Positions 3,569 through 25,961 are shown, counted from the first letter of the stretch. The stretch: 64,000 nt of DNA from Alphaproteobacteria bacterium (GCA_965200925.1 OZ241738.1:585774-649773); one strand, 5' to 3'. Program-made: numbers and translations. Notes: a model not told the origin generated them from the letters alone.

Positions 3569-5653
3569 TCACGAAACCGGGGGGGTGGCCCCAGCGGCGG
3601 CCTTTTCCATACGCTCGCGGATGTCGGCCGCGACTTCGAGCACCTCGGCCGGCGCTCGGACGCTCTCGCCGGCGCGCTGGCGCAGGGCGACGACGAGCGG
3701 CGCCAAGGCGTCGGCTTTCTCGTCGTCTTCCGAGAGTATTTCGAGGAGGACGCGCTCGGGAATCCCACCAGCGATCAACGCTGGCACGGTTTCCTGCATG
3801 GCACCCAGCATCGCCCGATCGTCGGGAGCGAACGCAGCGTACGCGAGGCGAAAAGTCTCCAGGGCGTCTTCCGCACGGCCGCTTCTTATTTGCGCCGCGC
3901 CCTTGTTGATGAGCGCCTTGGCGACCAATGCCTGAACTTCCGGTGTATCGTCGTCGCCGAAGTGTTCGATCACTTGGTCGTATGTCGCAACCTCCGCTTC
4001 AGGCTCGCCAAGCTGGCCTTGCGTGAGGCCTTTGAAGATTAATGTCCAGGCGACCTGTGCCCGAGCTTCCGGTGTGCCGTCGCCGCTGAAGCGTTCGATC
4101 ACTTGGTCGTATATCGCGACCGCTGCCTCGGGATCGCCAAGCTGGGCTCGCGCAATGCCCTTGTTGACCAGCGCCCAGGCGACCTGTGCTCGGACTTCCG
4201 GCGTGTTGTCGTCGCCGAAGCGTTCGATCACTTGGTCGTATGTCTCGATCGCCGCTTCGGACTCGCCGCGCTTCACATGCGAAGCCGCCTCTGCCATAAG
4301 CGCCTCGATGTCGATCTCGCTCGTTTCGGCCAAGCTGGGCGGGTGGGCGGTGTTCAGCCGTGCCCCGCCAGGAAAAAAGCCTCCGATGTCCGGCGCCTCG
4401 GCGATCGCCCGCTCGATTCCCTCGCGAATGGTTGCAGACCGTATCGCCTCGGCCCGGAGTGTGCCGGACAGGTCCGCCAGTTCGTCGCGGCCGTAGAAAA
4501 CCGTCATGAAGCGGATCAGAGTTTGCACGACGGCCGCCGCGTCGCGTTCGCGTCGCAGCTTGTAGTAGATGCAATAGAGCCGCTCGGCGGCGGCGTAGCG
4601 CCGCTTGCGGCCGGTTCCTTCCACGGCGATTGCGCCGCGGTCGACGAGCCTGCCGAGCATGGTCGAGACGGTGCGGACGTCCATCCCGGCGCGCGCCGCG
4701 ATCTCGCCGGTGCTCGACGGCCGCCAGAGATCGACCGCCGCCAGATAGACCCGGCGCTCGGTCCTGGCCAGACTCTCCAGATGACCGCGAAAATACTCCG
4801 TGTGGTCATCGATGAGCGTCACCAGCTCTTCCATCAGGCGGCCCAGGGAGCGGTGCCGCGCGAATCCCGCGACGATGACCAGCAGGCGGGGGCTGCCGCC
4901 CGTGAGGATTTGCAAGGCCCTGATTTCGCCGTCGCTCCTCTCGTCGCTGGCGACCGCGTGCCACAGGCGCCGGCAGGCTTCTCTGTCCAGAGGCTCCAGG
5001 GAGATATGCCAGAACAGTTCGAAGAAAGGTTGGCGTGCATCGTCCAGCGCCGCGAAGCGGCTGGTGGCGGTGGCCAGCAGCATGATCCCGGCCTCCGACT
5101 GCAACGCTTGGCGCAGCCCCCAGCCGAAATCGGCATCCGCGGGATCGCAGAGTGCCTGAAGGTTCTCGACCATGAGGACCAGCCGCCTGTCGAGGAGCTC
5201 GGCCGCTTCGAGGACGGCGGCGCGCGCGCGCTCGGACAATTCGCGCTCGCGCCAGCGGGATTTCAGGTCGGCATGGGTATCGCGCAGTTCCTGCGAGAGA
5301 GCCGGGTCGTCGATCTCCTGCGCCAAGTGGAACAGCGCTTCGAGCCAGAAGTCGGCGAGACCGAGGATCTCGTGACTTTCCTCCATGAACCGCACCGGCA
5401 ACAGGTGCTGGGAGAGCGCTTCGTCGGTCCGGATCTCGGCCGCGGCGCGCGCCAGCAGCATGGTCTTGCCCCGGCCGCGTGGCGCGACGACCAGGACATG
5501 CTGGCAGGATGGTGAATCGACGTTTCCCTGGAGAATCTCGATCACCGTCTTGAGTTCGCGGCGCCGGACAACGAATTGTTCGATCACCTCACGGTCGGAC
5601 TGGAACAGCCCGGGATTGAACTTGCGAAGCGTCCGGGCGTTCGGGGCGGTCAT
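3569..5653 (-). CDS. STAND-like AAA+ ATPase with winged-helix and C-terminal TPR repeats (694 aa)
   Basis: Walker A is VVAPRGRGKTML and Walker B-like is RLVLMVENL. A MarR-like wHTH is present (VRTVSTMLGRLVDRGAIAVEGTGRKRRY), followed by three ~43-aa TPR-like repeats. I chose the ATG at 5653 because it overlaps the upstream stop as ATGA; the track ORF begins 19 codons earlier. Confidence 0.75.
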   Translation of the reverse strand: MTAPNARTLRKFNPGLFQSDREVIEQFVVRRRELKTVIEILQGNVDSPSCQHVLVVAPRGRGKTMLLARAAAEIRTDEALSQHLLPVRFMEESHEILGLADFWLEALFHLAQEIDDPALSQELRDTHADLKSRWRERELSERARAAVLEAAELLDRRLVLMVENLQALCDPADADFGWGLRQALQSEAGIMLLATATSRFAALDDARQPFFELFWHISLEPLDREACRRLWHAVASDERSDGEIRALQILTGGSPRLLVIVAGFARHRSLGRLMEELVTLIDDHTEYFRGHLESLARTERRVYLAAVDLWRPSSTGEIAARAGMDVRTVSTMLGRLVDRGAIAVEGTGRKRRYAAAERLYCIYYKLRRERDAAAVVQTLIRFMTVFYGRDELADLSGTLRAEAIRSATIREGIERAIAEAPDIGGFFPGGARLNTAHPPSLAETSEIDIEALMAEAASHVKRGESEAAIETYDQVIERFGDDNTPEVRAQVAWALVNKGIARAQLGDPEAAVAIYDQVIERFSGDGTPEARAQVAWTLIFKGLTQGQLGEPEAEVATYDQVIEHFGDDDTPEVQALVAKALINKGAAQIRSGRAEDALETFRLAYAAFAPDDRAMLGAMQETVPALIAGGIPERVLLEILSEDDEKADALAPLVVALRQRAGESVRAPAEVLEVAADIRERMEKAAAGATPPVS
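3936..4322. repeat. Three tandem ~129-bp coding repeats (TPR units) inside the STAND ATPase
   Basis: The string ttcgatcacttggtcgta recurs at 3965, 4094 and 4223 (period 129 bp). The encoded units are YDQVIERFGDD.TPE.RAQVAW.L..KG......LG.PEA. Confidence 0.8.
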
Positions 5654-6870
5654 CGGGCGGCGTCCCGGCCGGCGAGCGGCACATGGTGATCGCGAAAGCG
5701 CGCCGCCCACCAGTCCTTCAGCAGGCGCGACGGGAAACGATAGCCGTCGGCGCCGGGTTCGAGATAGCCGTCGTGCTCCAGCACGTCGAGCGCCTCCGCG
5801 ACGCGGGCGGGCGCATCCTGGACCAGCGGCGCGTAAGACCGTTCGAGGGCGCGCCGCGCATCGGCGCCGAACACGCCCAGGAGCGCGGCTTCTGCGAGAA
5901 TTTCCATCGCGATCCTGCGGCTTTCGTCGTCCAGAGCGTCCTCCAGGCGGGTCGCGTAATGCAGGAGATCGCTCTGCCCCGACGGCCCGAGGAGCTCCGT
6001 GCGGTAGACCTCGTCAACCTCCGCCGTCGTCACCCGGTCGCGCCCCTGCATCGCGGCGGCTTCCCGCAAACGCGCGAAGAAGGACTGTACGTGGTGCGGA
6101 ATGCCGATGCCGAGAGCGTCGTAGGCTGCTTCGGCAACGCCGTCCTCGACCTGCAAGTCACAACGCGCGGCGAGCCGCTCGAAACAGGCGATGCTCGCGT
6201 CGCGGCTCCAGGGCCCCAGGCGGAAGGGGTCGAGGTAGTTGACGCGGTCGGGAATGCCGAGCCGGGTCACCAGGGGCATGAGCCCGATGCTGCCGGAGAG
6301 GATGACGACCGGAGAGCCGCCTTCCAGCCCCTGGAGCGCGCGTCGCAACCAGCTCAGGAAGTCGTCGACGCGCCGCGCTCCGTCTTTTTCGCGAAGCATG
6401 CGCGTGAGAAGGATCGGCAGTTCGTCGATGACGAGGAGAACCGGCCGCTCGTGCTCGGCGCAGGCGCGGATCAGGCCATCCCCGTGGCGGCGCCAGTTTC
6501 CGGCGTCCAGGCAGGCGCGGAACTTCACACGAAAGTCGAGTACCCCGACCTCCTCGACGCTCCCCCGAACGCCCCTCAGGCCGGCGGTGACACGCGCTGC
6601 GATGGAGCGAACCGGGTGCGCCGCCCGGGCGAGCTCGGCGATCGCGTCCTCCGCGCACGTCGCGTCCTCGACGTCGGCGAAGAGCGTGGTCCAGCCGTCG
6701 CCCGCCAGCCTCCGCCCGAGTTCACGGGCGATGCTGGTCTTCCCCATGCGCCGCTGCCCGGTGAGCAGCGTATGGTTGCCCTCGCGGACTCGCGTTTCCA
6801 GGATGCCCAATTCGGTTTCGCGATCGAAGAAGTCGGCGCCGCTCACCCAGCGGCCGGTGGCCGGTTTCAT
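5650..6870 (-). CDS. ATP-binding protein of the archaeal-type ATPase / DUF234-like family (406 aa)
   Basis: Contains FFDRETELGILE...LLTGQRRMGKTSIAREL (Walker A) and PVLLVIDELPILL (Walker B). The ATG at 6870 is preceded by GAGG. The stop overlaps the start of the next gene (ATGA). Confidence 0.7.
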   Translation of the reverse strand: MKPATGRWVSGADFFDRETELGILETRVREGNHTLLTGQRRMGKTSIARELGRRLAGDGWTTLFADVEDATCAEDAIAELARAAHPVRSIAARVTAGLRGVRGSVEEVGVLDFRVKFRACLDAGNWRRHGDGLIRACAEHERPVLLVIDELPILLTRMLREKDGARRVDDFLSWLRRALQGLEGGSPVVILSGSIGLMPLVTRLGIPDRVNYLDPFRLGPWSRDASIACFERLAARCDLQVEDGVAEAAYDALGIGIPHHVQSFFARLREAAAMQGRDRVTTAEVDEVYRTELLGPSGQSDLLHYATRLEDALDDESRRIAMEILAEAALLGVFGADARRALERSYAPLVQDAPARVAEALDVLEHDGYLEPGADGYRFPSRLLKDWWAARFRDHHVPLAGRDAAR

Positions 6871-6901
6871 GGCCCGCCTCGGAATCAACGGATTTGTCGT
6901 A

Positions 6902-6947
6902 TGATTAGGTATCAACAAATAAGTTGTCAACTATATTGTTGACGACA
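6902..6947 (-). promoter_or_regulatory. Putative promoter plus inverted-repeat operator of the two-ATPase operon
   Basis: This is a sharply AT-rich ~60-bp patch. The minus strand reads GTTGAC(A)-N17-CTAATC (TTGACA at 6930..6925). The arms gttgtcaac (6923-6931) and gttgacgac (6937-6945) form an 8/9 inverted repeat around tatat and overlap the -35. Confidence 0.35.
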
Positions 6948-11652: not shown

Positions 11653-12612
11653 TCAGCGGCGGGTGATCTTCGGCCCGACGTAGACGATGCAGACCGGCTC
11701 CCCGGGGCGGAACGACCACCAGAAATGCAGGCGCAAAGTGGGGCTTCGTACCTTGCCGTGCCACGAGCAGAACAAGGTGCCGCCGGCATCGCCGGGGTCG
11801 GGGAACGTCATTTCGTTGCGAAAATCGCGCCTCTCCGTGGGGGACGAATCGGAAAACAGCGCATTGCGACCCCTGAAGTGGTCCTGATGGATCCGGTTTC
11901 CTTCGGGCGTCCGCCTGCCGGACCGGTCGAAAGCACCCGCGAGACGGTCCAGGATGTTCAGCAGTATCAGGATGCGCTCTGACGCGCTCGCGGAGAACGG
12001 ACTCCCGTCGAGGGGTTGGAAGGCGTTGTCGGCGAAGGTCAGGCGTGTGAAGCGGCGCACCGAGGCGTTTCGCAAATCTCCCCACGACCGGACCGGTGGC
12101 GCCGCGGCGCGCAGCCCGTTTTCCAAAGCGGCGGGGGCGCGCCAGTTTTCGAGGGCTGCCTGCCGGTCTTCCAGTCCCTCGGCCTCCCGCCGCCACGCCA
12201 CCTCCACAGGCGAGAAGTCCCAGTCGGAAGGGACGACCCCGACGAGACCGCATTCGATTCCGTGAAGTTTCCGGTACGCGGCTTCGCCGACGACGGAATC
12301 GGTGACGACGTCGCCCCGGCACTCCAGCCAGTCGTCGGACCCGTGCCGGCGAAGATCGTCCCAGAACGGACCGCCTTTCGTCAGCCAGCGCATTGCGGAA
12401 CGGCGCTCGCTTTCCGACAGACACCCGATCGCCTGCTGCATCGAAACGCCCGGCAACGGTTCGACGGCCAGCAGCGCGCGGTGGCAATGAACGTCGCGCT
12501 CGTGGTGCCGGGCAACCGCGCGCATCGTCATCAGCCTGCCGAATGCGCCGCGAAACGATTGCAGGTCGTGGAATTGCCCGTGGATCGACAGGTCGTTGAC
12601 GAAAAGCTCCAC
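11653..12612 (-). CDS. Hypothetical protein, third gene of the DUF262/DUF3696 cassette (319 aa)
   Basis: GTG start with a GGAG SD, 1 nt after the ATPase stop. I recognise no family motif. The C-terminus reads FCSWHGKVRSPTLRLHFWWSFRPGEPVCIVYVGPKITRR. Confidence 0.6.
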   Translation of the reverse strand: MELFVNDLSIHGQFHDLQSFRGAFGRLMTMRAVARHHERDVHCHRALLAVEPLPGVSMQQAIGCLSESERRSAMRWLTKGGPFWDDLRRHGSDDWLECRGDVVTDSVVGEAAYRKLHGIECGLVGVVPSDWDFSPVEVAWRREAEGLEDRQAALENWRAPAALENGLRAAAPPVRSWGDLRNASVRRFTRLTFADNAFQPLDGSPFSASASERILILLNILDRLAGAFDRSGRRTPEGNRIHQDHFRGRNALFSDSSPTERRDFRNEMTFPDPGDAGGTLFCSWHGKVRSPTLRLHFWWSFRPGEPVCIVYVGPKITRR

Positions 12613-12613
12613 G

Positions 12614-13756
12614 TCAACTCCAGCCGGCGAAGTAGTTCATGTCCTTGTCGAACTGATCGAAGAACCCGTCTGGCCAGGAGTCGAGGTTGCCGGCTTCGTC
12701 CAGGGCCGGGCTCTGCACTTGGGCGCCGCCGCCCCGGGCGTCGTCGCGGCACGGCCGGAAGAAGTGCACCGCAGCGTCGCCGGCGGACAGCGTCCCGTCC
12801 CTGACCGCCCGGCGAATGCCGTTCAGGACGTGGTCGCTGTGCGTCTCGAGGAGGACCTGAACGCCGGCCGCGGCGACCTCGGTCAGGAACTTCCCCATCG
12901 CCGCCTGTCCGGCGGGGTGGAGATGCACTTCCGGGTTCTCGATCAGCAGCAAGCCGTCCCGGTCCGCGGACAAGGCCGCAACGACGATGGGAAGCACCTG
13001 GGTGAGGCCGAAACCGGTGTGAGCCGGGCGGTGAAAGTCCATATCGCTGGAGGTGCGAAGCCCCAGCAGCGCCGCATTGGCGCCGACGACCTCCCTGACC
13101 TCCAGTCCGCAGCCGGGGAAGAACCGGGCCATCCGCGCCTCGACCTGCCGCAGCCGGGTGCCGGGCACGCCTGGAAGCCGCAGGCGGTCCGGCACGTCGT
13201 CGTCGCGGCCGGCATGAAGAACGCTGACGGTATGCTCTCCTCGCGGGCCGACGACCGGCGCGCCTTGCGGATCTTCCAGAGGATAAGTTTCGCGCGGACC
13301 CAGCCGTTCCGCCGTCAGGTAGGTCAGCGTCCGAAGCCGTTGCGCCAACCGCCCATCCCCGTGCGGAGATGGCAACAAGTGGCGAAGACCGGTCGGACGG
13401 TCATGCTCGGTGCCGGCGACGGCGAGGCGGGCGACGTCCATCGACATGCCTTCGCGTTCACCCGCAAACGTCCATCGAAAGACCGTATCGCCATCCAGCA
13501 GGCCGATTTCGCACTCGCGGCGTCCCTGGACCTGATCGATCACGTCGGCGACGGTGCCGAGGCGGACGGCCGCGCCGTTCAGCATCAGCCGCGGCGACCA
13601 TTCATGCTCGCGCATCGTCTGGTGCAGGAGCGCCAGCCCCTGCAGGACCGTCGATTTCCCCGAGGCGTTGGCGCCGGAAAGAAGGGTCAGCGGGCGGAGG
13701 GGCAGCTTCAGCCCGCCGAAACACTTGAAATGACGGAAATCAATTCGTGTGAGCAC
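12614..13756 (-). CDS. DUF3696-type AAA/ABC-like ATPase
   Basis: 380 aa. N-terminal FRHFKCFGGLKLPLRPLTLLSGANASGKSTVLQ (Walker A), GFGLTQVLPIVVA, Walker B/D-loop LLLIENPEVHLHP and ETHSDH are present. The C-terminal WPDGFFDQF is characteristic of the DUF3696 tail. GTG start with a GGGGAG SD. Confidence 0.85.
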   Translation of the reverse strand: MLTRIDFRHFKCFGGLKLPLRPLTLLSGANASGKSTVLQGLALLHQTMREHEWSPRLMLNGAAVRLGTVADVIDQVQGRRECEIGLLDGDTVFRWTFAGEREGMSMDVARLAVAGTEHDRPTGLRHLLPSPHGDGRLAQRLRTLTYLTAERLGPRETYPLEDPQGAPVVGPRGEHTVSVLHAGRDDDVPDRLRLPGVPGTRLRQVEARMARFFPGCGLEVREVVGANAALLGLRTSSDMDFHRPAHTGFGLTQVLPIVVAALSADRDGLLLIENPEVHLHPAGQAAMGKFLTEVAAAGVQVLLETHSDHVLNGIRRAVRDGTLSAGDAAVHFFRPCRDDARGGGAQVQSPALDEAGNLDSWPDGFFDQFDKDMNYFAGWS

Positions 13757-14846
13757 TCAGAACTCCCCTGAACACGTCCCGAGCCTTTTGGAACCGATAC
13801 TTCACCTTTCTGGCGTCGTTGGGGCCGTAGGTGATTGCGGTATTGAACTCCTCGTCGTCGAGAAGCCGGTGGACGGCATCGCGAAGAGCGTCGGCACGCG
13901 CTTCGACCCTGTCCCGGGCGTAACGGCACAGGCCGGTGGACATCACGTCCCAGAACGAGGCGTTGAGAACGCTGCGCCGGTGAGGTTCCCTGGATTTCCT
14001 GAAGGCGTGTTCTCCGAACAGCATGTGATTGTTCTCGAGGCCTCGGCGGAACCGGCGGGACAGCTGCGAGAGTTCGGCTTCGTCCATCTCGTTCATGCGG
14101 CGCAGGCATTTGGCGAGAAAGTCGTCCATGTCGCCGCGGTAGTCGTCGCGATCGAGAAGGCGAAAGGCACAAAATCGATTGACGAACTCCCGGTCGCGCA
14201 TGGTCTTCCTGTTCAGGCTTCCACCGGTCGACAATACAAAAATCTCGGTTTGCGATTCCTCCTTGAGGAACTTCGTTGCCGCGCCCATGAACAGGCAATT
14301 ACGCATCTGCTGCCTCGTGAGCGGCACGCCGCTGTTCACCCTTTCGAAGATGTCCAGACGGGCGCGCTCGGGCACCTTCGAGTCGATGATGTAGAACGTG
14401 AGGTTGCAATCCTCGACGCGGTTCTTGAGCTTGGGTGGTAGATCCGAGAATTTTTTCCGGTGCAATTCGCCTCGATCTGGAAGATCAAGCGGCAATTCAT
14501 CTTTCACGAACCGCCGAAACGTGGACAGGCGCTGCAAACCGTCCACCACCACCATCCGCCCTTCTTCGTCCTCCGCCATGTAGAACACCGGCAGCGGAAT
14601 ACGCAAGATGACGGATTCGATCAGCTTGCTCTGCTTGTCGGGAGGCCAGAGGAATTCGCGCTGAAAATCAGGGTCCAGGATGTAGGTGTTCCGGTCGATC
14701 CGCCGCATGACGCCGTGAATCGTCCGGTTTTCCTGCCGGATCAGAAGCTCGTCGATGGGATACGTGCCCCACGATCCGCTCTCGGGATCCAGGCCCTCGA
14801 TTTTCTCCGGCGGGTCGACGTCCCCTGTCGTCTCGTGCGCGCTCAC
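13740..14846 (-). CDS. DUF262 (ParB/Srx-fold, GmrS-like) protein
   Basis: 368 aa. Contains DPDFQREFLWPPDKQSKLIESV and VVDGLQRLSTF (a DGQQR-type motif). GTG start with a GGAGG SD. The 3' end overlaps the ATPase start by 17 nt. The gene is visibly more AT-rich than its surroundings. Confidence 0.85.
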   Translation of the reverse strand: MSAHETTGDVDPPEKIEGLDPESGSWGTYPIDELLIRQENRTIHGVMRRIDRNTYILDPDFQREFLWPPDKQSKLIESVILRIPLPVFYMAEDEEGRMVVVDGLQRLSTFRRFVKDELPLDLPDRGELHRKKFSDLPPKLKNRVEDCNLTFYIIDSKVPERARLDIFERVNSGVPLTRQQMRNCLFMGAATKFLKEESQTEIFVLSTGGSLNRKTMRDREFVNRFCAFRLLDRDDYRGDMDDFLAKCLRRMNEMDEAELSQLSRRFRRGLENNHMLFGEHAFRKSREPHRRSVLNASFWDVMSTGLCRYARDRVEARADALRDAVHRLLDDEEFNTAITYGPNDARKVKYRFQKARDVFRGVLSAHTN

Positions 14847-14865
14847 CGTCTGGCCTCCACCGGAA

Positions 14866-14908
14866 GGAAGCGTCCGTGCCGACGGTAGCCGATGGCACGG
14901 ACTCTTCC
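14866..14908. other. Strong hairpin between the type IIG gene and the DUF262 gene
   Basis: The arms ggaagcgtccgtgcc (14866-14880) and ggcacggactcttcc (14894-14908) are complementary at 14/15 positions with a 13-nt loop. There is no U-run, so it is not a canonical terminator. Confidence 0.5.
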
Positions 14909-14969
14909 AGAGTCATCACACGGCGAATCGGGAGTCAATTAATTTCGCTTCCCGACCAGCCGCGGCCCG

Positions 14970-17900
14970 TTACCCCTCGATCTTCGCGTCCGGTTTGCCG
15001 GCGGCGAGGGCGTTGAGCCAGGCGAGGCAGAGGTCGCGGGAGCGGTAGCGGCCGTGGGAGGCGCGCTCCTGGCGTTCGACGATGGGGAAGGTGGAATAGA
15101 CGTAGCGGACGTCGTCGCGGTCGGTCACGCCGTAGAGGTGGAAGAAGAGGGCGTCGAGGCGGGCGCGCAGCCGCAAGCGGCGGTCCTCGTCCCAGGGAGG
15201 TGAGTTCCAGCACCGATTCGCGGACGATCTCGGCGGCCGTCTTCGGCCCGAAACGGACGGCGTCGTAGCGCGCGGGCGGGACCACGGGGAGTTGCTCCAG
15301 GACGAACCAGGTGAAGTGCGTCGCCGGAACCTTCTGCCTGGCGACGAAATCGAACACCAGGGCATTCAGGTTCGCGACGATCGAACAAGCCAGAGCGGCC
15401 CGATCCGTCGCGGCGTCTTCCAGCGGGAGCAAGGGAAGGGTGTGCCCGGCTCCGGCGCGCGGCACGATTGCCGCAATCATGGTGCGCATGTTGGTGGAAG
15501 CGGTGATGTCCTTGAAGGCGACGGCCCACCGGTCGCTCCAACGCCAGCGCTCGGGATCGTCCATGACGTAGTAGCGGGGGGTCGGGAAATGGTCGGGGTC
15601 TCGTTTCCGTGAGGCTTCGGCGGTTTCCTGTTGGCCGGGCCGGAACAGATTGTCCGGGTTCACGACGATGTCCGCCGCGCGGTGGTCGAAGGCTTGCACC
15701 ATCTTGCCTTCGTAGAGCGGCACCCACGCGCCTGCGGGGCTGGCGAAGCGGTTGCCGCCGACGGGCCACGCGCCTTCCTTCTCCTCCAGTTCCGCGCGGG
15801 TGCGGAAGAGGGCGGAGTCGTTGGCCATGTCGAACATGCGCGTGTAGCGCACCGGCCACGCCTTCGCTTCATCGCCTGCCGAGCGGTCCACCAGCACCGG
15901 CAGCCGTTCGTAGATCGCCACGGTCAATTCGGCGTCGCGGCGGGTGCGGAAGACGGGCGCGGTGCCGGTGTTGGGGTTGACGCGGGCGAAATCCGCCGCC
16001 GCCAGGGGGAAGCGGCGTTCCGGGTCCTCGCTCTCGGCCACGGCTTGCAGGAAGAAGGCGCAGCGCGCAGGCGCGCCCGCCGGTGCTCGGCCGGCGACGA
16101 AGGCGCAGAACTTGAAGCTTCGATGAACCTCCGGGAAGAAGGGCGGCGCCGCGTGGCGCGTGCGTCGGTTCTCGAAATCGTAGAGCGCGCGCAGCCGGCC
16201 TTCCGTCGCCACGCCTCTGAAGAAGCGGGCCGCCGTCTTGTCGGAGGCGATGCCGGAGGGCACCAGCAGGCCGACCACGCCTTCCGGCTTCGCCAGCGCC
16301 AGGGCGCGCTCGACGAACAGGCTGTAGAGGTTCACGTCGCCGCCGGAGAGCAGCGGGTAATCGCCGCAGGTCCGCGCCATGCGGGCCCTGTCCGCCGCCC
16401 GGGCGCCGGCCCGCGCGAAATCGCGGGCGAGCGGGTCCCCGGCCCTTTCCAGCGCGGCGACCAGGCGCCGGCGGTCGGCGGCGCGCGGGGCGTTCGCGAT
16501 CTCGGGCCGGCGGGCCGCGAACCATTCGACCTGTTGCAGCTTCACCCTGTCCCAGGGCGGGTTGCCGATCACGGCGTCGAAGCCGCCCTCGGGCGCGTCG
16601 CTCTCCCACTGCGACCAGACGCCGGGGAAGGCGACCTGCCAGTTCAGGAAGCGCTCCTCGGCGGCGAGCGCCCGCGCCTGGGCGAGGAGGCCGGCGAAGC
16701 GCTTTCCCTCAGCCCCGCGCGCGGCCGGTGCGCATGCGCCGCACACGATGGCGACGGGGTCGCCGAAGCGGCCCGCGAAGAAGGATTGGAGCGCCGTCCG
16801 GTCCTCGGGCGCCCGCAGGCCGAGCCAGTCGAAGGCGTGGACCAGGGCGAGAATCCGGTCGAGCGGTGCGGTCATCGCCTCGACCTCGGCGAAGGTTTCG
16901 GCGGAGCGGTGCGCCTCGGCGATTTCCGCGTCCGTGAGCGCCTCGATGGCCGCCATGCCCCGCGCCGCACCGGCGGCGCGGGTGATCGAATCGTGCAGCA
17001 GGAGCGGCGTTCCGTGTTCCGCCGCCTTGTCGATGCCGGCGCGCACCCGGGCGCCGAACAGGCTGTCGCCGCAGCGCAGATGGTGGTCGAGGAAGGAGAG
17101 CGGCGCGCCGACGGTGAAGGTATGCAGCCAGAGCGAGACCTTGGCGAGCTCCACCGCCATCGGGTTCTTGTCCACGCCGTAGACGCAGCGCTTGAGCACC
17201 ATGCGCCGCACGACGTGGCGGTCGTCGAGGCGTTCGGGAGCGACGGCCCAGCCGTTCGCCTCGGCGTTGGCGCGGACGGTGGCGCGGGTGGCCTCGATGC
17301 GGTCGGCGAGCGGCGAACGGTATGCGCCCCAGTCGACCGCCGCCTCCGCTTCGGCCATGGCGGCGATGGTCCGGTCGGCGAGCCAGTCCACCAGATTGAC
17401 CAGGAAATGCCCGGAGCCCATGGCCGGGTCGCAGACCTTGAGCGCCAGCAGGCGTTCGGCCGGGTCGAGCGCGCGCAATTCGGCGAGGCGAAGCGCGGCG
17501 TCGCGCCGGTCCCCGAGTTCCTCGGCGCGGGCGCGGAACGCCGCCATGGGCGCGGCGGCGAGCGGCCCCAGAGTCTCGTCGAGGATCAGGCCGACCAGAT
17601 CGTCCGGCGTGTAGTAGCTGCCGGAGTCCTTGCGCGCGAAGACGTCGGGGCGGACGGCGATGCTCCCGCCCTCCGCCGCGAGCGCGCGCTCCAGCAGGCG
17701 TTCGTAGACGGAGCCCAGCTGGCGGACGCCGAGATCGCGGTAGTTGATGTACTTGCGGCGCCCGTCCGCCGTCCGTTCGAAGGAGAGCGCGTCGATGACG
17801 TCGGCCATGACCGCATCGCCCAGCCGGACGCGGCCGAGCAGCGGCGTGCGGGCGCGGTCGAACAGGCCGCCGTCGTAGGGCGGCAGGCCGATGGAGGCGT

Positions 17901-18981
17901 CGCCGGCGTCGATGGCGCGGCAGAGGTCGTCGACGGCCGACCAGTAACGGGCGGCGCTCTCGGAGAAGACGTCGCCCTCGTCCTTGCGCCGCCCGACGTC
18001 GCCGCGCACCTTCGCGCGCAGGGCGTAATCGTCGTAGCGCGAGTCGCGGACGGGCAGCAGGTCGCGGTCCTCGGCATAGAGGATGAAGAGGAGGCGGTAG
18101 AGCAGGACAAGCCCGGCCTCGCGCACCTCCGCCAGCGGCGCGTCCGGCGCGGCGGCGGCGATGGCGCGGGCGAGCTGCGGGAAGACCCGCTCGAAGACCT
18201 TGGCGGAGAGATCGCCGGCGACGCGCTCCTCGTGGAAGCGGCCTTCGTCGACGGCGTAGCGGTGGAAACTCGCCGCCCGTTCCGCGCCGGGCAGGAAGGC
18301 CGCGCGCCGGAAGACCAGCGCGAAGACCTTGAGCCAGTGGCGGCGGGCCTCCGATGCCGGGGCGAACAGGTCGCCGCCCGCCGCCGCGGGGGTGAGGAGC
18401 GCCGCCAGGTCGATCTCGAAGAACTGCTCGGAGACGGAGCGCGCGCCCTGCCAGTAGAGCCGCCAGCAGGCGCCGTTGGTGAGGATGCCCCAGCGCAGCC
18501 CGCCTTGCGTCAGGTCCTCCACCCGGCGCAGGTAGCGGAGCATCTGGGTCGACGGCGCGGTCTCCTCGCCGTGCACGCCTGAGCGGCGGTCGAGCGGGCG
18601 CCGCCAGCGCTTGGATTCGACCAGCGCCGCGCCCAGCGCGTAGCGCCGCCACTCCTCCGGCAAGGCGTTGGCGCGGGCCTTCGCGGCTGCGTCGGCGAAG
18701 AGCAGGCCGTCCGGCACGTGGTCGCGCCCGCGGGCGCTCAGGTTCTGCTGCCGCAGGCTCTGCGTCCAGCCGAGGCGCCGGAGGACGGGCCAGATCAGGT
18801 CGTCCTCGGTCTGGCTTTCGTTGGGGGTGCCTTCGCTGGGGAAGCGGGCGAGGAGCGCGCCGAGGTCGCGTTCGAGGGCGTCGAGCGCCGCGTCGTCGAG
18901 CGCCTTCCAATCCGCCGAGCCGGCGATCGTGTCGCACAGGAAGCCGTCGGCGAACAGGCCGCCGCGGGAAAGGTTCTCCAT
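14970..18981 (-). pseudogene. Type IIG (Eco57I/MmeI-like) fused restriction endonuclease-N6-adenine methyltransferase, frameshifted near the 3' end
   Basis: ATG at 18981 with a GGAG SD (MENLSRGGLF...). N-terminal PD-ExK-like motif (VPDGLLF...LVESKRW), methyltransferase motif I VCDPAMGSGHFLV and motif IV GNPPW are present. After ...RESVLELT (about 15199) the conserved tail PPWDEDRRLRLRARLDALFFHLYGVTDRDDVRYVYSTFPIVERQ...KIEG* continues in another frame (track ORF 14970..15365). The 4012-nt span is not a multiple of 3. Confidence 0.8.
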
Positions 18982-19097: not shown

Positions 19098-19607
19098 TCA
19101 CGCCTCCGTTTCCGCCGGCGGCGGTGCGGGCTTCAACCCGTGGCGCATGGCGGACGCCGCGAGGACCGCGGCGACGATCCGCGCCTCGTCGCCGCAGCGG
19201 CACGGATTGCCGCGCAGCGCGCGGCGCACGTCCGCCGCGCTCGGGTCGATGTTCTCCTCCAGGAAATCCACCATGTTCGTCAGGATGCCGCCCGTACAAT
19301 CGCCGCACCGGGCGGCGCGATAGCGGCGGAACGCCTCGCGCAAATGGCGCGGCGTGCCGCGGCGGGCGAGCCCTTCGGCGGTGGTCACGGCCTTGCCGTC
19401 GAGCTGCACCGCGAGCTTCAGGCAGGATTTGTACGCCCTGCCCTCGATCAACACCGTGCAGGCCCCGCATCGTCCCGCGTTCGCGCAGCCGGCGAGCGTC
19501 CCCGCGTGCCCGCCCGCGTCGCGGATGAAATCGACCAGGAGGAGGCTCAAGGGCACGGTCCGCGCGTGCGCCGCGCCGTCGATCGTCACCGTGACGGTCT
19601 TGCGCAT
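19098..19607 (-). CDS. (2Fe-2S)-binding small subunit of a xanthine dehydrogenase/CO dehydrogenase-family enzyme (CoxS-like)
   Basis: From MRKTVTVTIDG. The Cys patterns GCANAGRCGACTV...SCL and RCGDCTGG...NPCRCG correspond to the two [2Fe-2S] sites. Confidence 0.8.
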   Translation of the reverse strand: MRKTVTVTIDGAAHARTVPLSLLLVDFIRDAGGHAGTLAGCANAGRCGACTVLIEGRAYKSCLKLAVQLDGKAVTTAEGLARRGTPRHLREAFRRYRAARCGDCTGGILTNMVDFLEENIDPSAADVRRALRGNPCRCGDEARIVAAVLAASAMRHGLKPAPPPAETEA

Positions 19608-19611
19608 GGCC

Positions 19612-20565
19612 TTATCTCTTCGCCGCGCGGGCGCAGGCCGCGGCCAGGGCATCGCGGCCGAGGGTGCGGATCAGCGCCTTGCGGCGCTCGCCGCTCGCCG
19701 CGGCGTCCGACTGCGCCTCGATGGCGTCGGCGGCCGCGGCGGCGGTTTCGGCAAAAACCGCCCGCCCGCCCGGCCGGCCGCGCAGCAGGTCGTCGATCTC
19801 GTCGAAGCGCCGGGCCGTCGGCGCAAGGCCGCCCACGGCGAAGCGGGCGCCGGTGCAGCGCCCCGCCTCGTCGATCTCGACGGCGGCTGCGACCCCGACG
19901 ACCGGCGGGCCGCCCGGCGTGGCGTCGTCCGGCGTGGCGCTGTCCGGCGTGGCGCCGTGCTTGCGATAGGCGCTGCCGACGCCCCGGTATTTCGGTGGGG
20001 GGAAGATGATCTCGACCAGGAGCTCGTCGTCCTGCCGCACCGTTTCGTCCGGCCCGGTGAGGAAGGCGTCGATCGGCACGGCCCGCGTGCCGCCGGCGGC
20101 CGAGGCGAGCACCAGCGTCGCGCCGAGGCAGAGGCAGACAGCGGGCATACAGGAGGCGACGGCGTTCCAGCACAGGCCGCCGCCGATGGTGGCGGCGTTG
20201 CGCAGCTGCCGGTCGCCCAGCGCCGCCGCCGCGTCGCCGACGGCCTGCAAGGCGCCGTGCAGGCCCGAGGTGGCGGCGAGCGCGCGACAGCGCGTCATCG
20301 GGCGCACGGTCAGGCCGCGCGGCCCCCGCGCGAGGCCGCTCAATTCCTCCACCCCGTTCAGGTCGATGAAGGCGCGCGGCGCGACCGGCTGCGCGCCCGC
20401 GTTCACGCAAGACCGCGCCGGCATCAGACTCGTGCCGCCGGCAAGAAACGCCGCCCCGCCCCCGGCGAGGCACCCGAGCGCCTCGTCGATGGTCCGCGGC
20501 GCGTGGAATGCCTCGAGTGTCGTCGAACAGGGCGGGCGTGAAGACAGGGGGGCCGTCGGCGGCAT
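19612..20565 (-). CDS. FAD-binding medium subunit of a molybdopterin dehydrogenase (CoxM-like)
   Basis: 317 aa. The FLAGGTSLMP motif and RNAATIGGGL are typical of the FAD_binding_5/CO-dehydrogenase flavoprotein fold. The start codon is uncertain. Confidence 0.8.
   Translation of the reverse strand: MPPTAPLSSRPPCSTTLEAFHAPRTIDEALGCLAGGGAAFLAGGTSLMPARSCVNAGAQPVAPRAFIDLNGVEELSGLARGPRGLTVRPMTRCRALAATSGLHGALQAVGDAAAALGDRQLRNAATIGGGLCWNAVASCMPAVCLCLGATLVLASAAGGTRAVPIDAFLTGPDETVRQDDELLVEIIFPPPKYRGVGSAYRKHGATPDSATPDDATPGGPPVVGVAAAVEIDEAGRCTGARFAVGGLAPTARRFDEIDDLLRGRPGGRAVFAETAAAAADAIEAQSDAAASGERRKALIRTLGRDALAAACARAAKR
19914..19958. repeat. 15-bp x3 in-frame tandem repeat inside the coxM-like gene
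   Basis: ccggcgtggcgtcgt / ccggcgtggcgctgt / ccggcgtggcgccgt, encoding ATPDS-ATPDD-ATPGG on the minus strand. Confidence 0.8.
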
Positions 20566-24107: not shown

Positions 24108-25961
24108 CTACGCGGCGGCCCGGACGAAATGCCCCGCCTCCCGCTCGACCAGGCCGGGGCGCGCCTCCTGGTCGACCGTGAACGGCGCCGGCCAGGCGGC
24201 GGGCTCCGAGGCCTTGCCGGCCATCAGCGCCGTCAGATCGAGCTTCGAATCGAGTGACGGCTCGGGCACCGCCGCAACCAGGGCCTGGGTGTAGGGATGG
24301 AGCGGGTTGCGGAAGAGGGCCTCCCGGGGGGCGATCTCGACGATGCGGCCGGCGCACATCACGGCGATGCGATGGGCGATGTAATCGACCACCGCGAGAT
24401 TGTGCGAGATGAACAGATAGGTCAGATCGAGTTTCTCCTGGAGGTCCTTCAGGAGGTTCAGGACCTGCGCCTGGATCGAGACGTCGAGGGCCGAGACCGG
24501 CTCGTCGCAGATCAGCAGCGCCGGTTTCAGCGCGAGCGCGCGGGCGATTCCGATGCGCTGGCGCTGGCCGCCGGAGAAACTGTGCGGGTAGCGCCGGAGG
24601 AAGCGCGGGTCGAGGCCGACCAGCCGCATCAGCTCCCGCACGATCGCGCGCCGCTCGGCGGGCGTGCCGACGCGGTGGATGACCAGCGGCTCGGCGATGA
24701 TGTCGAAGACGGTCATGCGCGGGTTGAGGGAGCCGAACGGGTCCTGGAAGATGAACTGGATCTTGCGCCGGAAGGAAACGAGCCGGCGGGCCGGGAGCGC
24801 CCGCACGTCGATTTCCTCCGCGCCGTCGCGGAAGACGATGGCGCCCCGGTCGGCCTGGATCGCGCGCAGGATGAGCTTGCTCAGGGTCGTCTTGCCGCAA
24901 CCGCTCTCCCCCACCAGCCCGACGCACTCGCCGCGCCGCACGTCGAGGCTCACGTCGTCCACCGCGTCCACCCGCACCGCCGGCCCGCCGCCGAACAGGC
25001 CCTGCTTGCGGATGGCGAAGCTCTTCCCCAGGCCGCGCACGCTGAGCAGGGGCGCCGCGCTCCGCACTGGGCGTGTCCCGCCGGCGGAGAGGAAGGGGCC
25101 GGTCTCCGCCTTGATCTCGCGGAGCGGCACCAGACGCTCGCCGGGCGCCATGTGGAAGCGCGGCACCGCGTGCAGCAAGGCGTCGAGATAGGGGTGCCCG
25201 GGGGCGCGGTAGATGTCTTCGACCGTGCCGCGCTCCATCACCTTGCCGCGGTACAGGACGACCACCTCGTCGGCCATGTTGGCGACCACGCCGAGATCGT
25301 GGGTGATCATCAGGATGGCCATGCCGAGCCGGGCCTGGAGGTCCTTCATCAGCTTGAGAATCTGCGCCTGGATGGTGACGTCGAGCGCGGTGGTCGGTTC
25401 GTCGGCGATCAGCAGCGCCGGCCGGCAGACCAGCGCCATGGCGATGGTCGCCCGCTGCCGGAGGCCGCCGGAGAGCTCGAACGGATAGGTGCGCAGCGCC
25501 TTGCCGGGATCGGGAAAGCCCACCAGCCCCAGCATCTCCGCCGTGGCCTGGCGGCTTTCCTCCCGGCCGCCGCCCCGGTGCAGCCGGTAGGCCTCGCCGA
25601 TCTGGTTGCCGATGGTGTGGAGCGGCGAGAGCGCGGTCATCGGCTCCTGGAAGACGATCGAGATGCGCCTGCCCCGGATCGCCCGCATCGCCCTGCCGTC
25701 GGCCTTCAGGGCGGTGATCTCGACCGGCGGGCCGTGGGCCGGATCGTTCAGCGTCACCCGCCCGCCTGCGATATGGGCCACCTTGGGCAGGATGCGCATG
25801 ATGGTCTGGGAGATCACCGACTTGCCGGAGCCCGATTCCCCGACCAGGGCCACGGTGCGCCCGGCGGGGACCGAGAACGAGACGCCGTCGACGGCGCGAA
25901 TCGTCCCCTCGGCGACGCGGAAACGGACCTCCAGGTTCTCGACGGTGAGAAGCGCGCTCAC
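24108..25961 (-). CDS. ABC transporter ATP-binding protein with two fused NBDs (YejF/GsiA-like)
   Basis: 617 aa with two Walker A motifs ([16 protein letters not shown]), two signatures ([16 protein letters not shown]) and two Walker B motifs. Confidence 0.9.

What the first reader, a model, noticed from the sequence alone, without database searches (positions are those of the whole stretch)
11653..14846. Overlapping DUF262 / DUF3696-ATPase / unknown 319-aa triad: candidate undescribed defence module riding behind a type IIG restriction-methylase
Seen: three co-directional ORFs each start with GTG behind a good SD. They are packed by a 17-nt overlap (13740-13756) and a 1-nt gap (12613), which implies one translationally coupled operon. 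Gene 1 carries the DUF262 motifs (FQREFLW, DGLQR). Gene 2 is a DUF3696 ATPase (Walker A GANASGKS, LLLIENPEVHLHP, WPDGFFDQF tail). Gene 3 (319 aa) has no motif I can place in any family. Established: DUF262 is the NTPase/DNA-sensing half of the type IV restriction enzymes GmrSD/BrxU and SspE. ABC-like ATPases of this type are the core of several anti-phage systems (Septu-, Gabija- and PARIS-like architectures). Inference: this is a three-component immunity module in which the third protein is an effector or specificity factor. I cannot match this exact gene triad to a named system from memory.
Basis: partly seen in the sequence, partly recalled or inferred. Interest (0 to 1): 0.8.

Follow-up and report, generated by a model that had tools for sequence, protein, structure and literature searches.

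The report
Known Menshen (NsnABC) anti-phage operon
The three overlapping genes are a textbook copy of Menshen (NsnA-NsnB-NsnC), an anti-phage defence system named in 2022 and already present in defence-system catalogues, so the locus is real and probably functional but it is not a new kind of system.

Summary
Three co-directional minus-strand genes (13740-14846, 12614-13756, 11653-12612) start with GTG behind Shine-Dalgarno sequences, overlap by 17 nt, then sit 1 nt apart, and carry the stated DUF262 and DUF3696-ATPase motifs.

The claim that the module is undescribed does not hold. PADLOC-DB v2 models match all three proteins almost end to end:
- NsnA, E = 7.6e-115
- NsnB, E = 1.2e-98
- NsnC, E = 2.4e-105, residues 1-319 of a 319-position model

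NsnABC is Menshen, validated by Millman et al. 2022 as cited in Li et al., NAR 2025 (PMC12065111), which dissects the system. NsnA has no extra N-terminal domain, so this is Type I Menshen.

In 82 related loci from many phyla, nsnB precedes the 319-aa gene in 82. nsnA is present in 81, and the exception is a contig end. The IIG methylase neighbour recurs in only 2 close relatives. About 30% of relatives instead sit inside Hma / DUF499-type methylase systems.

The 319-aa protein models confidently (pLDDT 88.5). Its C-terminal topology and invariant H285/R294/H296 fit the BECR-RNase effector proposed for most NsnC proteins, but fold searches were not significant.

In passing: the IIG gene carries a 77-nt frameshifting deletion.

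Verdict: already known, low interest.

The parts
13740..14846 (-). nsnA: ParB-DUF262 NTPase plus C-terminal DNA-binding (ParBDB) region, the proposed sensor. There is no extra N-terminal domain, so this is Type I Menshen.
   Evidence: PADLOC NsnA E = 7.6e-115, residues 30-363 against model positions 38-383 of 385. Pfam GmrSD_N E = 8.1e-22. Motifs QREFLW 62-67, DGLQR 102-106, FERVN 167-171. dN/dS 0.23-0.28.
12614..13756 (-). nsnB: ABC-type ATPase with a DUF3696 C-terminal helix, the proposed transducer that holds NsnC.
   Evidence: PADLOC NsnB E = 1.2e-98, residues 1-377 against model positions 1-343 of 345. Pfam AAA_15, AAA_21 and DUF3696. Walker A GANASGKS. It also has the NsnB-typical deviations described in PMC12065111: Walker B 'EN' in LLLIENPE and a GxG signature (GFG). 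dN/dS 0.17-0.18.
11653..12612 (-). nsnC: the 319-aa effector, with an N-terminal alpha/beta domain (about 1-170) and a C-terminal domain (about 172-319) carrying invariant H285, K287, R294, H296, Y311, K315.
   Evidence: PADLOC NsnC model PDLC03896 E = 2.4e-105, 1-319 of 319, plus eight further NsnC models. AF2 pLDDT 88.5 for the full chain and 93.4 for the C-terminal domain. Invariant residues from a 40-sequence alignment. dN/dS 0.31-0.46.
14847..14972 (-). Structured spacer between the ancestral stop of the methylase gene and the nsnA start. It probably holds the IIG terminator and/or the nsnA promoter and leader.
   Evidence: MFE -63.1 kcal/mol, z = -4.4 against shuffles. The block TTGACTCCCGATTCGCCGTGTGATG and a hairpin are kept in L001 and L003, with one compensatory change in L003 by my reading. 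The sigma-70 consensus scan found nothing.
14935..18981 (-). Neighbouring type IIG-like restriction-methylase gene. It is not part of Menshen, and it is frameshifted near its 3' end.
   Evidence: Pfam Eco57I E = 1.9e-19. PADLOC REase_MTase_IIG E = 1.3e-54, and DrmMI E = 1.8e-79 over the methylase core only. NPPW and VPDG...VESK motifs found as strings. 77-nt deletion after about 15199 relative to L001 and L003; the last 78 conserved residues are now out of frame. GC3 0.92, against 0.77-0.82 for the nsn genes.

Best explanation
The locus is a Type I Menshen anti-phage system, nsnA-nsnB-nsnC, expressed as one translationally coupled operon.

The working model is taken from the published model for Menshen. 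It is inferred by homology here and was not tested.
1. NsnA (ParB-DUF262 NTPase plus ParBDB DNA-binding domain) recognises invading phage DNA.
2. NsnA then stimulates NsnB. NsnB is an ABC ATPase predicted to form a tetramer whose DUF3696 tails clamp the N-terminal PIN-like domain of NsnC.
3. ATP binding or hydrolysis by NsnB activates or releases NsnC.
4. [quoted passage not shown] This stops phage replication, possibly at the cost of the infected cell.

The adjacent type IIG methylase gene is an independent neighbour in a small two-system defence islet. It is not a component of Menshen.
For: Shown here:
- Full-length, very strong matches of all three proteins to the NsnA, NsnB and NsnC models.
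- The three DUF262 motifs are present in NsnA. NsnB has the deviations described for the family: EN in place of DE in Walker B, GxG in place of SGG, and the DUF3696 tail.
- Gene order and packing are conserved. In 82 related loci from more than 10 phyla, nsnB is adjacent in 82 and nsnA in 81; the one exception is cut by a contig end.
- Neighbours vary between loci: type IIG, type I R-M, Hma/DUF499 systems, transposases, or plain housekeeping genes. The triad therefore moves as a self-contained unit.
- All three genes are under purifying selection.
- NsnC has two confidently modelled domains.
- The NsnC C-terminal domain shows a short helix followed by four beta-strands in the DSSP string, which I read as fitting the BECR core described.
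- The four best PDB matches of that domain are HigB/HigB2-type toxins.
- An H...R.H set is invariant. This parallels the H-R-H triad reported for the PB-BECR1 domain of the archetypal NsnC.

From the literature:
- Menshen from Solibacillus silvestris protects against T2, T4, T6 and Fado.
- Loss of the DUF262 gene abolishes defence.
- The sensor-transducer-effector model and the predicted NsnB4-NsnC2 complex come from PMC12065111.
- Mass photometry shows that Menshen forms higher-order complexes.
Against: - No step of the mechanism has been shown biochemically for any Menshen system, and none was tested here.
- The BECR assignment of this NsnC C-terminal domain is not established. The Foldseek hits to HigB toxins have E = 0.6-1.2. 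The best viral hit is an unannotated 124-aa protein at E = 0.025. A profile search against PDB sequences, Pfam at E <= 10, and hhalign against YafQ all gave nothing significant.
- The PIN-like nature of the N-terminal domain could not be confirmed.
- How NsnA signals to NsnB is unknown.
- Some reviews list the Menshen effector as an OLD/Toprim nuclease. That applies to other NsnC variants and not obviously to this one.
Confidence: 0.9

Rival explanations
1. Menshen here is not autonomous. It acts as a methylation-aware restriction arm or 'backup effector' of the neighbouring methylase. The IIG (or, in relatives, Hma/BREX-related or type I) methylase marks self DNA, NsnA senses unmarked or differently marked DNA, and NsnC is then triggered.
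For: - The triad lies 88-126 nt downstream of a methylase gene on the same strand.
- 30 of 81 related loci have a methylase homologue within 10 kb. Of these, 24-27 are embedded at one fixed position, between DUF7680 and the DUF1156 methylase of Hma/DUF499 systems.
- One further locus abuts a type I R-M system.
- Li et al. report that 27.9% of Menshen operons lie next to BREX, R-M systems or methylases, and they raise this same question.
- DUF262 domains sense DNA modification in GmrSD and SspE.
Against: - Most related loci have no detectable methylase nearby. Two of them (L083, L085) sit among transposases or housekeeping genes.
- The partner methylase type varies (IIG, type I, DUF1156). This is what defence-island clustering predicts, not a dedicated partnership.
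- The IIG homologue recurs in only 2 close relatives.
- The nsn genes differ in GC3 from the IIG gene, 0.77-0.82 against 0.92.
- The S. silvestris system is described as the three components NsnA, NsnB and NsnC.
- The IIG gene is frameshifted here while the nsn genes remain intact.
Confidence: 0.1
2. The module is a type IV-like DNA restriction system. NsnC is a DNase or another non-RNase effector, and the system cuts (modified) phage DNA directly rather than RNA.
For: - The closest characterised DUF262 proteins (GmrSD, BrxU, SspE) drive DNA cleavage or nicking.
- The validated Menshen restricts T2, T4 and T6, which are phages with modified cytosines (the modification is from my own knowledge).
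- Some NsnC variants carry Toprim or PLD nuclease domains.
- The fold of this NsnC C-terminal domain is not significantly matched to any solved structure.
Against: - There is no DUF1524/HNH, Toprim, PLD or PD-(D/E)xK signature in NsnC.
- The topology, the top-ranked HigB toxin matches and the invariant H/R/H and K residues favour a RelE/YafQ-like RNase.
- Li et al. assign PB-BECR1 to the majority of Type I Menshen systems.
Confidence: 0.12
3. The islet is decaying and the Menshen operon is no longer functional in this genome.
For: The adjacent IIG gene has a 77-nt frameshifting deletion. No sigma-70-type promoter was found upstream of nsnA.
Against: - All three nsn ORFs are intact and full length relative to the models, and all catalytic motifs are retained.
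- dN/dS is 0.17-0.46.
- The promoter scan uses an E. coli-type consensus on a genome with 70% G+C.
- The deletion may be an assembly error.
Confidence: 0.05

Closest known systems
Menshen (NsnABC), Type I; archetype Solibacillus silvestris StLB046 (Millman et al. 2022; Li et al. NAR 2025, PMC12065111)
   Same: Same three genes in the same order. NsnA is DUF262 plus a C-terminal DNA-binding region with no extra N-terminal domain. NsnB is an ABC ATPase with EN in Walker B, a GxG signature and a DUF3696 tail. NsnC is a two-domain protein of about 300 aa. All three proteins match the PADLOC Nsn models at E = 1e-98 to 1e-115.
   Different: This is a different sequence subfamily of NsnC. It hits PADLOC model PDLC03896, and other NsnC models only weakly. 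The host is an uncultured, high-G+C alphaproteobacterium-like genome. I could not place it in the inPIN and effector sub-family numbering of Li et al., because the supplementary tables are not held. Nothing differs in kind.
GmrSD / BrxU / SspE (type IV restriction, DUF262-DUF1524)
   Same: N-terminal ParB-DUF262 NTPase with the QRxxxW, DGxQR and FxxxN motifs, followed by a helical DNA-binding region.
   Different: There is no fused DUF1524/HNH nuclease. The effector is a separate protein, linked through an ABC ATPase.
PD-T4-2
   Same: The DUF262 protein has detectable similarity (PD-T4-2_A, E = 3e-35).
   Different: The match is far weaker than the NsnA match, and the partner genes differ.
Septu (PtuAB), Gabija (GajAB), PARIS (AriAB), OLD
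   Same: An ABC/AAA_15-type ATPase that is predicted to hold and regulate a toxic effector. Partial HMM matches to the ATPase core of AriA, GajA, PtuA and Old.
   Different: The matches cover only the Walker and signature segments. There is no HNH (PtuB), Toprim (GajA, AriB) or helicase (GajB) partner. Those systems have no DUF262 sensor.
Hma / DUF499-centred BREX-related systems (PMC12839542)
   Same: Roughly 30% of close relatives of this Menshen subfamily are embedded inside such systems.
   Different: The window has no DUF499, DUF7680, DUF1156 or SNF2 genes next to the triad. Here the neighbour is a type IIG enzyme.

Membership tests
Menshen (NsnABC) | NsnA: ParB-DUF262 domain with motifs QRxxxW, DGxQR and FxxxN | tested here: met
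   QREFLW 62-67, DGLQR 102-106, FERVN 167-171. Pfam GmrSD_N E = 8.1e-22.
Menshen (NsnABC) | NsnA: C-terminal ParBDB region after DUF262, and no DUF1524 nuclease | tested here: met
   The PADLOC NsnA model aligns over residues 30-363 of 368 (model positions 38-383 of 385), E = 7.6e-115. There is no DUF1524 hit. The fold of the C-terminal region was not modelled.
Menshen (NsnABC) | NsnB: ABC ATPase with Walker A, 'EN' Walker B and GxG signature, plus a DUF3696 C-terminal helix | tested here: met
   GANASGKS, LLLIENPE, GFG, THSDH. Pfam DUF3696 E = 4.1e-12. PADLOC NsnB E = 1.2e-98. Feature list.
Menshen (NsnABC) | A third gene immediately downstream encodes NsnC (N-terminal PIN-like domain plus C-terminal effector domain) | tested here: met
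   PADLOC NsnC PDLC03896 E = 2.4e-105, 1-319 of 319, plus 8 other NsnC models that cover either half. The AF2 model has two domains.
Menshen (NsnABC) | Conserved nsnA-nsnB-nsnC operon across genomes | tested here: met
   nsnB adjacent in 82 of 82 loci and nsnA in 81 of 82; the exception is a contig end. The same 17-nt overlap and 1-nt gap appear in five gene-called loci.
Menshen (NsnABC) | Confers anti-phage defence | not testable with these tools
   Shown only for the S. silvestris system (T2, T4, T6, Fado), as cited.
BECR (RelE/YafQ-like) RNase fold, PB-BECR1, for the NsnC C-terminal domain | [quoted passage not shown] | tested here: inconclusive
   In the DSSP string of the model, H258-263 is followed by strands 269-271, 279-288, 293-298 and 307-314; the match to the BECR core is my reading. 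H285, R294 and H296 are invariant. The top four PDB Foldseek hits are HigB/HigB2 toxins, but at E = 0.6-1.2 and TM <= 0.30. The profile search against PDB sequences, Pfam and hhalign against YafQ were all negative.
Inactive PIN-like (inPIN) domain, for the NsnC N-terminal domain | Rossmann-like PIN topology lacking the D-E-D-D catalytic residues | tested here: inconclusive
   The model shows an alpha/beta domain over residues 1-170. Whole-chain Foldseek gave no hit with E < 0.9.
GmrSD/BrxU/SspE type IV restriction enzymes | DUF262 fused to a DUF1524 (HNH) nuclease in one polypeptide | tested here: not met
   Only GmrSD_N is found in the 368-aa protein.
Septu / Gabija / PARIS | Full-length PtuA, GajA or AriA ATPase with its cognate nuclease or helicase partner | tested here: not met
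   Only partial matches of 40-70 residues to the ATPase motifs. NCBIfam PtuA scores 30.6 bits against a cut-off of 500. No partner genes are present.
MADS (methylation-associated defence system) | MAD3 ATPase, MAD2 methylase and the other mad genes | tested here: not met
   NCBIfam MAD3 scores 53 bits against a cut-off of 420. MAD2 scores 18.8 bits against a cut-off of 720.
DISARM (for the neighbouring methylase) | DrmMI together with DrmA, DrmB and DrmC/DrmD | tested here: not met
   The DrmMI match covers the methylase core only. The flanking genes are CoxS/CoxM-like, isochorismatase and Opp permeases, with no PADLOC hits.

The most novel reading that the evidence does not exclude
This abundant 319-aa-NsnC Menshen subfamily may be a plug-in RNA-targeting effector cassette that reads the mark laid down by whichever DNA methylase it lands next to. 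Here that is a type IIG enzyme. In about 30% of relatives it is the DUF1156 methylase of Hma/BREX-related systems, always at the same insertion point, and elsewhere it is a type I R-M system. On this reading NsnA would discriminate self from non-self by methylation state. Menshen would then be a modification-dependent abortive arm rather than a stand-alone system.
Probability: 0.1. Interest if true: 0.5.

Novelty: already known. Interest (0 to 1): 0.12.

Why it matters
For this scan it matters mainly as a negative result. The triad should be annotated as Menshen (NsnABC, Type I) and dropped from the list of candidate new systems.

Three points have some residual value.
- The mechanism of Menshen is still unproven experimentally. 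This NsnC subfamily is unusually uniform (about 319 aa, 50-65% identity across more than 10 phyla) and models with high confidence. It could therefore be a good target for biochemistry, with H285/R294/H296 as candidate catalytic residues.
- The repeated embedding of this subfamily at one position inside Hma/DUF499 methylase systems is a concrete dataset for asking whether Menshen cooperates with methylases.
- The frameshifted IIG gene next to an intact Menshen operon is a small example of differential decay within a defence islet, unless it is an assembly error.

Tried and rejected
Searches aimed at the NsnC folds:
- Whole-chain Foldseek of the NsnC model against PDB gave nothing below E = 0.99.
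- The C-terminal domain model against PDB ranked HigB-type toxins first, but not significantly. Against BFVD the best hit was an unannotated phage protein at E = 0.025.
- A profile of the C-terminal half against all PDB sequences gave one spurious hit at E = 1.8.
- Pfam at E <= 10 on each half of NsnC found nothing meaningful.

Wider architecture search:
- An exhaustive profile search of 1.84 billion representative proteins with the 88-residue C-terminal core found 474 clusters. Among the 150 listed, most have the ~320-aa NsnC architecture or are shorter proteins that look like fragments of it.
- No stand-alone toxin relatives appeared that could bridge to a named family.
- Four of the five longer proteins checked (P0199, P0258, P0224, P0272) have no Pfam domain and P0206 has only a sub-threshold nSTAND3 hit. 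Two of the other proteins checked, P0209 and P0143, carry unrelated domains (UreD, T1RH-like_C), which suggests gene-call fusions.

Literature limits:
- The supplementary tables of Li et al. are not held, so I could not assign the inPIN and effector family numbers.
- A 2026 BECR preprint that mentions Menshen could not be opened.

Alternatives considered and rejected:
- DISARM, MADS, Septu, Gabija, PARIS, PD-T4-2 and GmrSD membership (see the membership tests).
- That the + strand ORFs overlapping the triad (for example 12596-13771) are genes. They are the usual antisense ORFs of a genome with 70% G+C, and the GC3 pattern supports the minus-strand frames.

Other negative results: no tRNA gene and no Rfam family in the window.


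Full report

Yes. The ORF list and translations give three co-directional minus-strand ORFs at exactly the stated coordinates:
- 13740-14846 (368 aa)
- 12614-13756 (380 aa)
- 11653-12612 (319 aa)

Each starts with GTG, 6-7 nt after a GGAG-type Shine-Dalgarno sequence. The first two overlap by 17 nt (13740-13756), and the last two are separated by the single base 12613.

The quoted motifs are all present:
- Gene 1: QREFLW, DGLQR and also FERVN.
- Gene 2: GANASGKS, LLLIENPEVHLHP and WPDGFFDQF.

Pfam confirms GmrSD_N/DUF262 for gene 1 (E = 8e-22) and AAA_15, AAA_21 and DUF3696 for gene 2. It finds nothing for gene 3, and neither does NCBIfam.

These are genes rather than the chance ORFs that a sequence with 70% G+C throws up:
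- Third-position G+C is 0.77-0.82 in the called frames.
- dN/dS against two orthologous loci is 0.17-0.46.
- The 319-aa protein has more than 766 database relatives of almost constant length.

**2. What is it?**

The defence-specific library settles this. Against PADLOC-DB v2.0.0:
- Gene 1 matches NsnA at E = 7.6e-115 (residues 30-363 on model positions 38-383 of 385).
- Gene 2 matches NsnB at E = 1.2e-98 (1-377 on 1-343 of 345).
- Gene 3 matches an NsnC model at E = 2.4e-105 over its whole length (1-319 of 319). Eight further NsnC models hit one or both halves.

NsnA-NsnB-NsnC is the Menshen system. According to Li et al. (NAR 2025, PMC12065111), Millman et al. 2022 discovered it. The Solibacillus silvestris operon protects against T2, T4, T6 and Fado. 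A review notes that removing the DUF262 gene abolishes defence.

Li et al. list the diagnostic features, and the window meets each one that I could test:
- NsnA has the three DUF262 motifs and a C-terminal DNA-binding region, but no DUF1524 nuclease.
- NsnB is an ABC ATPase in which the Walker B 'DE' is replaced by 'EN' (LLLIENPE) and the SGG signature by GxG (GFG). It ends in the DUF3696 helix.
- A third gene of about 300 codons follows immediately.

Only about 37 residues precede the DUF262 domain, so this is 'Type I' Menshen, the majority class.

**3. Conservation and context**

A pattern scan of one genome per species recovered 80 loci encoding relatives of the 319-aa protein at 47-86% identity. 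They come from Alpha- and Gammaproteobacteria, Acidobacteriota, Latescibacterota, Binatia, Gemmatimonadota, Nitrospirales, Spirochaetia, Thermodesulfobacteriota and others.

With two further loci from exact-protein look-ups (one of which duplicates a scan locus), tblastn finds nsnB directly upstream in 82 of 82. It finds nsnA upstream of that in 81 of 82, and the exception is cut off by a contig end. The 17-nt overlap and 1-nt gap recur in five independently gene-called loci.

The neighbours vary between loci:
- The type IIG methylase recurs only in the two closest relatives, L001 and L003.
- One locus abuts a type I R-M system.
- Two loci sit among transposases or housekeeping genes.
- 24-27 of 81 loci are embedded at one fixed place, between the DUF499/DUF7680 genes and the DUF1156 methylase/SNF2 helicase genes. 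These four genes make up the system called Hma, or 'DUF499-centred BREX-related'.

This agrees with the published figure that 27.9% of Menshen operons lie beside BREX, R-M systems or methylases.

In the window the islet is only about 7.3 kb. It is flanked by CoxM/CoxS-like dehydrogenase subunits on one side and by isochorismatase and Opp permease genes on the other. There is no tRNA gene, and none of the ten flanking proteins scanned hits a defence-system model apart from ATPase-core matches of the ABC-transporter protein at 24108-25961. The nsn genes have lower GC3 (0.77-0.82) than both the flanks and the IIG gene (0.89-0.92). This suggests separate and more recent acquisition.

**4. The 319-aa protein**

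An AlphaFold2 model built from 40 homologues is confident (mean pLDDT 88.5, pTM 0.86). It shows an N-terminal alpha/beta domain (about 1-170) and a C-terminal domain. Modelled alone, residues 172-319 reach pLDDT 93.4.

The last ~60 residues form a short helix followed by four beta-strands. This is the core topology that Li et al. give for BECR (Barnase/EndoU/Colicin/RelE) RNases, which make up nine of the fifteen NsnC effector families and, as PB-BECR1, the majority type.

Invariant residues cluster there: C282, H285, G286, K287, R294, H296, W299, Y311, G313, K315, T317. The H285...R294.H296 set parallels the H-R-H triad reported for the archetypal PB-BECR1.

The four best PDB matches of the domain are HigB/HigB2 toxins of the RelE family, but at E = 0.6-1.2 and TM <= 0.30, so they are not significant. 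Sequence-profile routes found nothing.

An exhaustive profile search found the domain in 474 clusters at 50% identity, and almost all of the 150 listed have the same ~320-aa architecture or look like fragments of it.

I therefore treat 'BECR RNase' as the most likely assignment (about 65%) but as unproven. The PIN-like nature of the N-terminal domain could not be tested separately.

**5. How it most likely works**

The model below is inferred from homology and from the published model. Nothing in it was tested here.
1. NsnA binds invading DNA through its ParB-DUF262 NTPase and ParBDB domains.
2. NsnA then stimulates NsnB.
3. NsnB is predicted to be a GajA-like tetramer whose paired DUF3696 tails clamp the N-terminal domain of NsnC, as PtuA holds PtuB and AriA holds AriB.
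4. ATP binding or hydrolysis releases or activates NsnC, which degrades RNA.

Mass photometry in a 2025 preprint supports higher-order complex formation by Menshen. Two things remain unknown for every Menshen system: what NsnA senses, and whether phage or host RNA is cut.

**6. Rivals**

(a) Functional coupling to the neighbouring methylase.
- For: the frequent methylase neighbourhoods, and the fact that DUF262 domains read DNA modification in GmrSD and SspE.
- Against: the variety of methylase types, the many relatives with no methylase detected within 10 kb, the compositional difference between the nsn and IIG genes, the description of the archetype as a three-component system, and the fact that the IIG gene here is broken.
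- My estimate is about 10%.

(b) A DNA-cutting, type IV-like mechanism. No DNase signature is present. My estimate is about 12%.

(c) A dead remnant. The intact ORFs, retained motifs and purifying selection argue against it. My estimate is about 5%.

**7. The neighbouring 'type IIG' gene**

It is an Eco57I-family gamma-class N6-adenine methylase. It has NPPW, and by eye an N-terminal PD...ExK motif (VPDG...VESK). Its strong PADLOC DrmMI score covers only the methylase core, and no other DISARM gene is nearby.

Two corrections to the ORF are needed:
- The ORF as listed (1511 aa) starts too early. The orthologue-supported start is ATG 18981.
- Relative to L001 and L003 there is a 77-nt deletion just after position ~15199. 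It shifts the frame, so the last 78 conserved residues are replaced by a Pro/Arg-rich tail.

The displaced segment still shows dN/dS of 0.23 in its old frame. The deletion is therefore either recent or an assembly error.

**8. Novelty and verdict**

The system, its architecture, its association with methylases, and even an HMM for this NsnC subfamily are all already published or catalogued.

The finding is a correct observation with a broadly correct functional guess, but it is not new. Novelty: already known. Interest: low (0.12).

The most novel reading that remains open is that this subfamily works as a methylation-reading plug-in to methylase systems. I put that at about 10% probability and moderate interest if true.

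Noticed in passing
window 14935-18981 (-), break at about 15199: The type IIG restriction-methylase gene has a 77-nt deletion relative to its orthologues in L001 and L003. The deletion shifts the frame, so the last 78 conserved residues (15197-14973, ancestral stop TAA 14972-14970) are replaced by a Pro/Arg-rich tail. The displaced segment still shows dN/dS of 0.23 in the old frame, so the event is recent or is an assembly error. The listed 1511-aa ORF also over-extends at its 5' end; the true start is ATG 18981.
   Followed up: yes
L004, L005, L007, L008, L011, L016, L018, L022, L024-L026, L028, L030, L033, L034, L039, L041, L044, L046, L053, L058, L059, L076, L077 (around the triad, which in most of these loci lies at about 7.7-11.0 kb): About 30% of relatives of this Menshen subfamily (24-27 of 81 loci) lie between the DUF499/DUF7680 genes and the DUF1156 methylase/SNF2 helicase genes of Hma / DUF499-centred BREX-related systems. 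In about half of them nsnA starts directly after the DUF7680 stop; in the others (for example L004, L016, L022, L046) further genes lie between.
   Followed up: partly
window 14847-14972 (-): The 126-nt spacer between the methylase gene and nsnA folds unusually well (-63.1 kcal/mol, z = -4.4). It forms two hairpins. The second (GTCCGTGCC...GGCACGGAC) is kept in L003 with what I read as a compensatory T-A to C-G change, and a conserved TTGACTCCCGATTCGCCGTGTGATG block lies in the first. It may be a terminator, promoter or leader element, and it has no Rfam match.
   Followed up: partly
window 11653-14846 against the flanks: The nsn genes have GC3 of 0.77-0.82 (nsnA overall G+C is 0.59). The flanking housekeeping genes and the IIG gene have GC3 of 0.89-0.92. 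Menshen therefore looks like a more recent or separate acquisition than the methylase.
   Followed up: yes
L003-L082 (record titles): The 319-aa NsnC subfamily keeps 47-66% identity and an almost constant length across more than 10 bacterial phyla. Nearly all hits are metagenome-assembled genomes. This implies wide horizontal spread of one rather uniform Menshen variant, in contrast with the 'hyper-polymorphic' picture of NsnC overall.
   Followed up: partly
window 3569-5710 (-) and 5650-6930 (-): Two adjacent STAND-like NTPase genes. One has AAA_16 plus wHTH and TPR repeats, and the other has AAA_16/nSTAND1-like matches. Neither hits a PADLOC model. They could be regulators or an uncatalogued NLR-like defence pair.
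   Followed up: no
window 19098-20565 (-): CoxS-like (2Fe-2S) and CoxM-like (FAD-binding) subunits of a molybdopterin dehydrogenase lie immediately upstream of the IIG gene. No large-subunit gene follows them, so the defence islet may have inserted into or beside that operon.
   Followed up: no
L002 5647-7661; L085 11968-13146: Other AAA_15/AAA_21 ATPase genes sit next to Menshen in relatives. In L002 one is paired with an unannotated 251-aa gene inside the same Hma locus. These are possibly further embedded defence cassettes.
   Followed up: no
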